NCBI RefSeq assembly: GCF_004010195.1 | Contig: NW_025214735.1 | Coordinates: 1 to 50,000 of the forward strand | Length of the DNA: 50,000 nt | Direction: 5' to 3' | Source: Chiloscyllium plagiosum | Taxonomy: Eukaryota | Part shown: positions 4,453 to 4,584 of the stretch, piece by piece | How positions within the stretch are numbered: the first letter of the stretch is position 1 | Layout of the letters: every line of letters starts with the position of its first letter | Position numbers and translations under genes: made by a program | The notes under the pieces: generated by a model | What the model saw: only the letters and a program-made list of their open reading frames with translations | What the model was told of the DNA's origin: nothing | Database searches by the model: none

Positions 4453-4584
4453 AAAGTGAGGTCTGCAGATGCTGGAGATCAAAGTTGAAACTTTATTGCT
4501 GGAACAGCACAGCAGGTCAGGCAGCATCCAGGGAACAGGAGATTCGACGTTTCGGGCACAGGCCCTTCTTCAGGAATGAGCAGA
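4453..4584 (-). mobile_element. Short Penelope-type insertion (family A) with an intact-looking minimal hammerhead motif
   Basis: 11-bp TSD gagactaggac at 4442-4452 and 4585-4595; same sequence family as the 7570, 12653, 36135 and 47883 copies. Confidence 0.75.
4542..4577 (-). ncRNA. Minimal hammerhead ribozyme motif
   Basis: Minus strand reads attc-CTGAAGA-a-GGGC-ctgt-GCCC-GAAA-CGTC-gaat: CUGANGA and GAAA cores, 4-bp stem I, 4-bp stem II, palindromic ACGU stem III, GUC cleavage triplet. Confidence 0.7.

What the first reader, a model, noticed from the sequence alone, without database searches (positions are those of the whole stretch)
4542..4577. Apparently intact minimal hammerhead ribozyme in a TSD-flanked short retro-insertion
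Seen: the minus strand reads AUUC-CUGAAGA-A-GGGC-CUGU-GCCC-GAAA-CGUC-GAAU. It has both catalytic boxes, a 4-bp stem I, a 4-bp stem II and a stem III reduced to the palindrome ACGU; predicted cleavage is after GUC, between 4546 and 4545. Known: Penelope-like retroelements carry minimal hammerheads with palindromic stem III that are thought to cleave as dimers. Inference: this is a young, possibly active copy lying antisense in the last MRPS27 intron.
Basis: partly seen in the sequence, partly recalled or inferred. Interest (0 to 1): 0.7.

Follow-up and report, generated by a model that had tools for sequence, protein, structure and literature searches.

The report
Young Penelope fragment with minimal hammerhead
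This is a real, intact-looking self-cutting RNA motif carried by a short, recent, dead-end copy of a Penelope-type jumping gene, a kind of sequence already described and very common in this genome, so it is ordinary.

Summary
The motif is there as described (minus strand 4577-4542, predicted cut 4546/4545) and is not chance: 2 descriptor hits in the window, 0 in 150 shuffles. It heads a 132-nt insertion (4453-4584) with a perfect 11-bp target duplication, inside a CR1 LINE remnant, antisense in the inferred last MRPS27 intron. Six more relics lie in the window, three as head-to-head pairs, two with the 33-38-nt one-sided 'tail' typical of Penelope-like elements (PLEs). The same core occurs in 17 metagenome loci, with covarying stem I, and in 2 of the 15 tested it follows a GIY-YIG-like frame. 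Read data support youth: this subfamily's letters make up about 60% of depth in one species and 2-16% in a close relative at three of six sites. Activity of this copy is unsupported: it is 5'-truncated, antisense to the host gene, has no dimer partner, and one weak RNA test showed no end pile-up. No autonomous partner was found. It is a new member of the PLE minimal-hammerhead kind (2014). The scan has noted the same thing many times on other pieces of this genome.

The parts
4542..4577 (-). Minimal type I hammerhead: stem I 4 bp, core CUGAAGA + extra A, stem II 4 bp, GAAA, palindromic ACGU in place of stem III; predicted cut 4546/4545
4453..4584 (-). 132-nt insertion: hammerhead-plus-tail end of a PLE pseudo-LTR, 5'-truncated; 3 letters at 4585-4587 fit both the element and the target duplication
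   Evidence: (joint, loose ends)
4442..4452 (+). Left copy of the 11-bp target-site duplication
4585..4595 (+). Right copy of the 11-bp target-site duplication
4453..4485 (-). The 33-38-nt 'tail' that one arm of the inverted sister copies lacks
   Evidence: arm ends at reference 4448-4450 versus 4483-4486
3870..4890 (+). Host repeat: 3' remnant of a LINE (CR1 label recalled), interrupted by the insertion; bounds approximate
   Evidence: weak RVT_1 hit E 0.0073 at 3819-4046; high repeat depth to 4890
3337..3498 (+). Inferred second-last MRPS27 coding exon
   Evidence: AG/GT signals and phase; not confirmed by database
15748..15984 (+). Last coding exon of MRPS27
47883..48095 (.). Same family, head-to-head pair, 15-bp target duplication, tail on one arm (33 nt); plus-strand core intact at 47972 but stem I only 2 bp before a mismatch
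12658..12795 (.). Same family, head-to-head pair, 15-bp target duplication, tail on one arm (38 nt); core truncated
7577..7774 (.). Older relative, head-to-head pair, possible 7-bp duplication; cores decayed
36135..36224 (-). Older solo relic, possible 8-bp duplication; palindrome lost
31205..31247 (-). Sister-family minimal hammerhead, intact, with U3-A8 core covariation and 4-bp stem I
24768..24844 (+). Sister-family relic truncated inside the core, possible 10-bp duplication

Best explanation
The insertion is a dead-on-arrival, 5'-truncated copy of the end module (hammerhead plus about 95 nt, ending in the 'tail') of an endonuclease-positive Penelope-like retroelement, from a subfamily that amplified recently in this species. 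Inferred steps: the element's RT/GIY-YIG protein nicked a CR1 remnant in the MRPS27 intron, primed reverse transcription at the outer tail site on an uncut element RNA, copied through the hammerhead, stopped about 11-14 nt beyond the core and joined the target through a 3-letter microhomology, leaving an 11-bp duplication. Shown: the motif, the duplication, the empty-site form in other CR1 copies, the family, the subfamily skew. The hammerhead is genuine by descent and looks intact because the copy is young; it should cut only as a dimer or with protein help, in transcripts of tandem source elements. This copy is inert: wrong strand for MRPS27 RNA, no upstream pseudo-LTR, no partner.
For: Anatomy matches the min-HHR features of PMC4209133 (extra base before stem II, G10.1-C11.1, palindromic 15.2-16.2). 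Same core in 17 metagenome loci; stem I, which the pattern did not fix, pairs in 16 of 16 distinct rows at the first pair (UA 14, CG 2) and 15 of 16 at the second (CG 9, GC 4, UA 2), covariation 0.243, 0 of 500 shuffles. GIY-YIG-like frame just upstream on the same strand in L013 (E 3.6e-4, just under the Pfam cut-off) and by tblastn in L001 (E 2e-7). In the window 3 of 6 other relics are head-to-head pairs and 2 of these 3 have a 33-38-nt one-sided tail, as in PMC3846280 and PMC8557442. Cut-to-end distance 93-100 nt, against 85-92 nt computed from PMC11167929, where uncut RNA is the template and the hammerhead needs protein. Youth: window letters hold 60-64% of summed depth at 4482, 4559, 4561 in organism A (X1, X5) and 8.5%, 15.6%, 2.4% in organism B (X10); 12 near-fixed private changes in 509 nt of host CR1, none listed in the 132-nt insert (expected 3.1, P 0.045). 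No RNA depth on the unique flank 4922-5200 and no end pile-up.
Against: No autonomous element carrying this exact end was found: no whole genome was held, the window has no PLE ORF match (best tblastn E 0.79), and the metagenome loci match only in the core. 13 of 15 loci tested show no GIY-YIG-like frame. The tail is unclear in the third pair (51 nt by local alignment). Site 4485 does not show the species skew (90% in B). 16 rows of the difference table were hidden, depths are not copy numbers, and the 92% likeness filter favours the window's letters. The RNA test is weak (about 2% of one single-cell polyA run). The metagenome rows fall into few related groups, so the shuffle count is not a probability; the third pair holds in 10 of 16 and the fourth in 2 of 16.
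Confidence: 0.82

Rival explanations
1. The unit is a free-standing non-autonomous mini-element or non-LTR retrozyme monomer: a short RNA of about 135 nt transcribed from its own source copies and mobilised in trans by PLE proteins, rather than a truncation product of long transcripts.
For: 5' ends of the window's copies cluster in or just before the core (reference 4556-4587); summed DNA depth falls from 3.3e6 to 0.7e6 across 4570 in X1. Non-LTR retrozymes derived from PLE pseudo-LTRs are reported in one chondrichthyan (bioRxiv 10.64898/2026.07.22.740005). One contig joint 4577->4448 with 7 letters between, kind not shown, could be a head-to-tail junction.
Against: No tandem array of the unit in the window (4 arrays, periods 14-20). 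The family continues upstream of 4587 in 10 and 9 contigs. Copies keep the core upstream of the cut, so they are not cleavage-defined monomers. Head-to-head pairs with a tail are the PLE pattern.
Confidence: 0.13
2. This copy is a working ribozyme at this locus, cutting an antisense or read-through transcript and so affecting MRPS27 or the convergent MAP1-family gene.
For: All core bases and both stems are intact; family RNA is seen on both strands in X21, with depth falling 177 to 138 between 4543 and 4559 on one strand and 99 to 92 on the other.
Against: Single min-HHRs showed no cleavage in PMC4209133. The nearest intact same-strand motif is 26.7 kb away and has different stem I arms. No RNA on the unique flank and no end pile-up. 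The swapped dimer scores -13.1 against -14.2 kcal/mol for two monomers. The reads on the element come from many loci.
Confidence: 0.04
3. The motif is a chance arrangement within a repeat.
For: Rfam reports no hammerhead here; the insert as a whole is not unusually structured.
Against: 0 hits in 150 shuffles; identical core with covarying stem I in distant hosts; a second family in the window has the compensatory U3-A8 core.
Confidence: 0.01

Closest known systems
Minimal hammerheads (min-HHR) in pseudo-LTRs of metazoan PLEs (Cervera and De la Pena 2014, PMC4209133)
   Same: Type I topology, 4-bp helix I, extra base between positions 9 and 10.1, G10.1-C11.1, palindromic 15.2-16.2 with no loop 3, mostly single dispersed copies tied to truncated PLEs, some pairs on opposite strands.
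   Different: Helix II is 4 bp rather than the 7-8 bp of the schistosome families; the main-text parts read name fish, coelacanth, Xenopus and reptiles, not sharks.
Poseidon PLE of Anolis (PAc; Frangieh et al. 2024, PMC11167929)
   Same: Hammerhead near the pseudo-LTR end; two reverse-transcription start sites defining a tail; uncut RNA as template; similar distance from cut to element end; no read ends at the cut site.
   Different: PAc's start codon lies at the start of stem II; no ATG lies there in this copy and no ORF follows. No protein partner was identified here.
PLE insertions with inverted pseudo-LTR, tail and 8-10-bp duplication (Arkhipova et al. 2013, PMC3846280; Craig et al. 2021, PMC8557442)
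   Same: Head-to-head arms, 30-40-bp tail on one arm, short target duplications, microhomology at 5' junctions.
   Different: The finding itself is a single arm without the inverted copy, and all window copies lack the ORF.
Non-LTR retrozymes (bioRxiv 10.64898/2026.07.22.740005)
   Same: Non-coding, type I hammerhead, derived from PLE pseudo-LTRs, present in one chondrichthyan.
   Different: Defined by tandem repeats of hammerhead-bearing units; none in this window.

Membership tests
PLE min-HHR | Conserved core C3-U-G-A-N-G8-A9 and G12-A-A-A15.1, U16.1-H17 | tested here: met
PLE min-HHR | Extra base between 9 and 10.1; G10.1-C11.1 pair | tested here: met
   features
PLE min-HHR | Palindromic 15.2-16.2 in place of helix III | tested here: met
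   ACGU
PLE min-HHR | Short helix I supported by covariation | tested here: met
   first two pairs 16 of 16 and 15 of 16, third 10 of 16, fourth 2 of 16
PLE min-HHR | Self-cleavage as dimer or with protein help | not testable with these tools
   no bench data; no RNA end pile-up in one weak test
Endonuclease-positive PLE | End repeat linked to an RT plus C-terminal GIY-YIG ORF | tested here: inconclusive
   not found for this family; found next to the same core in 2 of 15 metagenome loci tested
Endonuclease-positive PLE | Inverted (head-to-head) copy at the 5' end | tested here: met
   3 of 6 other window relics; the finding itself is a single arm
Endonuclease-positive PLE | 30-40-bp tail on one arm only | tested here: met
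   33 and 38 nt in 2 of 3 pairs; third unclear
Endonuclease-positive PLE | Short target-site duplication | tested here: met
   11 bp here; 15, 15 and possible 7-10 bp in the others
Non-LTR retrozyme | Tandem head-to-tail units each with a hammerhead | tested here: not met
   none in the window; genome-wide not testable; one ambiguous joint
Non-LTR retrozyme | Circular RNA with junction at the cut site | tested here: inconclusive
   no such joint among the rows shown for X21 (many rows hidden; polyA library unsuited)

The most novel reading that the evidence does not exclude
A species-restricted burst of a 135-nt non-autonomous PLE subfamily whose founder improved its hammerhead (stem I mismatch closed to four pairs, new loop II, an added AAUAAA) although it is copied from uncut RNA. 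The hammerhead fold would then be selected as the 5' boundary or protein-loading signal of the mobile RNA, or for cutting in tandem source loci, and the very many young copies would give a natural mutational scan of what the motif is for.
Probability: 0.15. Interest if true: 0.45.

Novelty: new member of a known kind. Interest (0 to 1): 0.17.

Why it matters
As a single copy it matters little: it is a recent relic of an abundant repeat. Its use is as a clean, near-consensus example of a young subfamily, suitable for testing the open question of what PLE hammerheads do (PMC11167929 found them dispensable for insertion in vitro and protein-assisted). I found no paper describing these motifs in this family in cartilaginous fish, but a 2026 preprint already counts hammerhead-bearing PLE derivatives in one chondrichthyan.

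Tried and rejected
Rfam, E-value mode on 3500-5500 and gathering mode on the whole window: no hammerhead family hit. Viral contigs: 0 matches to the core pattern. No whole genome held, so copy number, longer copies and the autonomous partner stay open. Pfam scan of 113 of 121 frames of 72 aa or more from 15 of the 17 metagenome loci (L014 and L017 left out as near-duplicates; 8 frames of L009 and L015 left out) plus 17 window frames: one GIY-YIG hit, no RT hit in the loci. tblastn of that frame against the window: nothing (E 0.79). The empty-site joint cannot show presence/absence at this locus, because other CR1 copies give the same joint; no listed contig bridges the junction to unique flank. 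The strand difference in RNA depth across the cut (177 to 138 versus 99 to 92) was rejected as evidence of cleavage: no end pile-up, mixed loci, library direction not confirmed. Energy model does not favour the swapped dimer, but it ignores core and tertiary contacts. Second-last MRPS27 exon not confirmed by database. Look-up of earlier findings by sequence returned nothing. Lunse et al. (PMC5785218) was not held; known only from its title in a review's reference list and that review's text. Supplement file 1 of PMC4209133 could not be searched and the 2026 preprint's supplements were not seen; either may list shark families.

Full report
Observation. The minus strand at 4577-4542 holds the motif exactly as reported: a 4-bp stem I, the core CUGAAGA, one extra A, a 4-bp stem II with a 4-nt loop, GAAA, and CGUC, which leaves the palindrome ACGU where helix III should be. 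C17 is at 4546, so the predicted cut is 4546/4545. A descriptor for minimal hammerheads (stem I of 3 pairs or more) finds 2 sites in the window, this one and one at 31241 on the minus strand, and 0 in 150 dinucleotide shuffles. The bare 36-mer folds into stems I and II, but stem I is weak in its flanks (pair probability 0.003-0.15 in three contexts). Rfam reports no hammerhead.

The insertion. An exact 11-mer at 4442-4452 and 4585-4595 brackets 132 nt. The flanks are a LINE 3' remnant (weak RVT_1 hit; the label CR1 is recalled). Laying four runs on 4250-5200 shows the joint 4441->4585, skipping 143 letters with 11 fitting both sides, in all four runs; this is the uninterrupted form in other CR1 copies, and says nothing on polymorphism at this locus. 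Loose ends behind 4587 in 10 contigs of X1 and 9 of X5 show that the family continues upstream, so this copy is 5'-truncated and its last 3 letters double as the start of the duplication. The last coding exon of MRPS27 lies at 15748-15984 on the plus strand; the exon before it, near 3337-3498, is inferred from splice signals and phase and was not confirmed by database. A MAP1-family gene ends convergently near 42851-43003 (the name MAP1B is recalled from synteny). The motif is therefore antisense to MRPS27. That the genome is a shark's is recalled from its repeats and echoed by earlier notes; no call tested it.

The family. Six more relics lie in the window. Three are head-to-head pairs joined at the hammerhead side; in two of them one arm lacks the outer 33 or 38 nt, and in the third, older pair the alignment is unclear. 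All six have candidate duplications of 7-15 bp. This is the inverted-copy-plus-tail pattern of endonuclease-positive PLEs (passages of PMC3846280, and PMC8557442). The distance from the cut to the outer end is 93-100 nt; in the Anolis element it works out at 85-92 nt, uncut RNA is the template, the hammerhead cuts only with protein present, and no read ends were seen at the cut (PMC11167929, parts 1-2 of 4 read). No tandem array of the unit is in the window.

Outside evidence. The core pattern has 0 matches in viral contigs and 17 in metagenome contigs. Stem I was not part of the pattern. With two window copies added (19 rows, 16 distinct), the first pair holds in 16 of 16 (UA 14, CG 2), the second in 15 of 16 (three pair types), the third in 10 of 16 and the fourth in 2 of 16; covariation 0.243, reached by 0 of 500 shuffles, with slid controls at 0.07 or less. 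The rows are related in groups, so this is support, not a probability. Of 15 loci scanned, L013 has a GIY-YIG-like frame ending 110 nt before the motif on the same strand (E 3.6e-4), and L001 has a match to that frame upstream of its motif (E 2e-7). The others show none. No such frame was found for the window's own family, and no genome was held. The anatomy fits the min-HHR definition of PMC4209133 (parts 1-2 of 4 read; 2 supplement files searched without hits, 1 not searchable), where single motifs did not cut and dimers cut weakly.

Age. At six listed sites inside the insert I compared the share of summed contig depth that carries the window's letter. In organism A (X1, X5) versus organism B (X10): 4482 64/63% versus 8.5%; 4559 64/62% versus 15.6%; 4561 62/60% versus 2.4%; 4543 42/43% versus 17%; 4505 31/26% versus 5%; 4485 64/65% versus 90% (no skew). 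Two further listed sites (4462, 4509) were not included. B differs from the window at 5 of 248 letters of unique flank, so it is a close relative. The host CR1 has 12 near-fixed private differences in 509 nt; the insert has none among the rows shown (3.1 expected, P 0.045; 16 rows hidden). So the copy is close to the consensus of a subfamily that expanded in this species. X1 may be the source sample; depths are not copy numbers. The older copies in the window have a mismatch at the third pair of stem I, which this subfamily closes.

Activity. In X21 (about 2% of one single-cell polyA run) the element collects reads on both strands from many loci, the unique flank 4922-5200 has no depth, and no place shows a pile-up of ends. 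This is a weak test. The nearest intact same-strand motif is 26.7 kb away and has different stem I arms, so it cannot complete a swapped dimer (inference). The energy model gives -13.1 kcal/mol for the swapped homodimer against twice -7.1 for monomers. I conclude that this copy is inert.

Comparison and novelty. It works like, and by every testable sequence feature is, a PLE minimal hammerhead; linkage to an autonomous ORF is inconclusive and cleavage untested. It fails the tandem criterion for non-LTR retrozymes within the window (preprint 10.64898/2026.07.22.740005, part 1 of 5 and passages read; it reports such elements in one chondrichthyan; supplements not seen). PLEs are known to be expanded in whale shark introns (passages of 10.1101/443036). 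Review passages on dimer cleavage come from PMC6765202. Searches for a description in sharks gave 1, 0 and 3 papers (listings only, apart from the preprint). Earlier notes of this scan describe the same thing on many other pieces of this genome; I reached the reading before seeing them, and one led me to PMC3846280. Verdict: real, young, ordinary; new member of a known kind; interest 0.17.

Noticed in passing
window 31205-31247 (minus): A second intact minimal hammerhead from a sister family, with the compensatory U3-A8 core and a 4-bp stem I whose two arms are the same palindrome; the U3-A8 variant is described for schistosome PLEs in PMC4209133. It lies between the convergent 3' ends of MRPS27 and the MAP1-family gene.
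   Followed up: partly
window about 4110-4240: A G+C-rich stretch inside the host CR1 looks like an antisense 28S rRNA fragment replacing part of the LINE (template switch or capture). An 18-letter piece at 4155-4172 occurs with '28S' in 122 papers (listing only); Rfam did not report it; bounds are recalled.
   Followed up: partly
window 4491-4496 (minus): This subfamily has AAUAAA about 50 nt downstream of the cut and about 38 nt before the element's end; the older window copies lack it.
   Followed up: no
window 47883-48095: The two arms are 98% complementary over 89 nt with 2 nt between them, a long hairpin in an intron of the MAP1-family gene.
   Followed up: partly
window 4762-4890: Very high one-strand RNA depth in X21 (up to 14,000) from another locus that ends in a CR1 3' end; the reads run on into unrelated sequence.
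   Followed up: no
L005, L008, L012, L017: Inverted or duplicated junctions fall right at the 5' arm of stem I in these distant hosts too, the same boundary as in the window.
   Followed up: no
window 9845-10174 and 18010-18135: Another inverted-arm repeat (135-nt arms, 87% complementary, 27 nt apart), possibly a further fold-back family.
   Followed up: no
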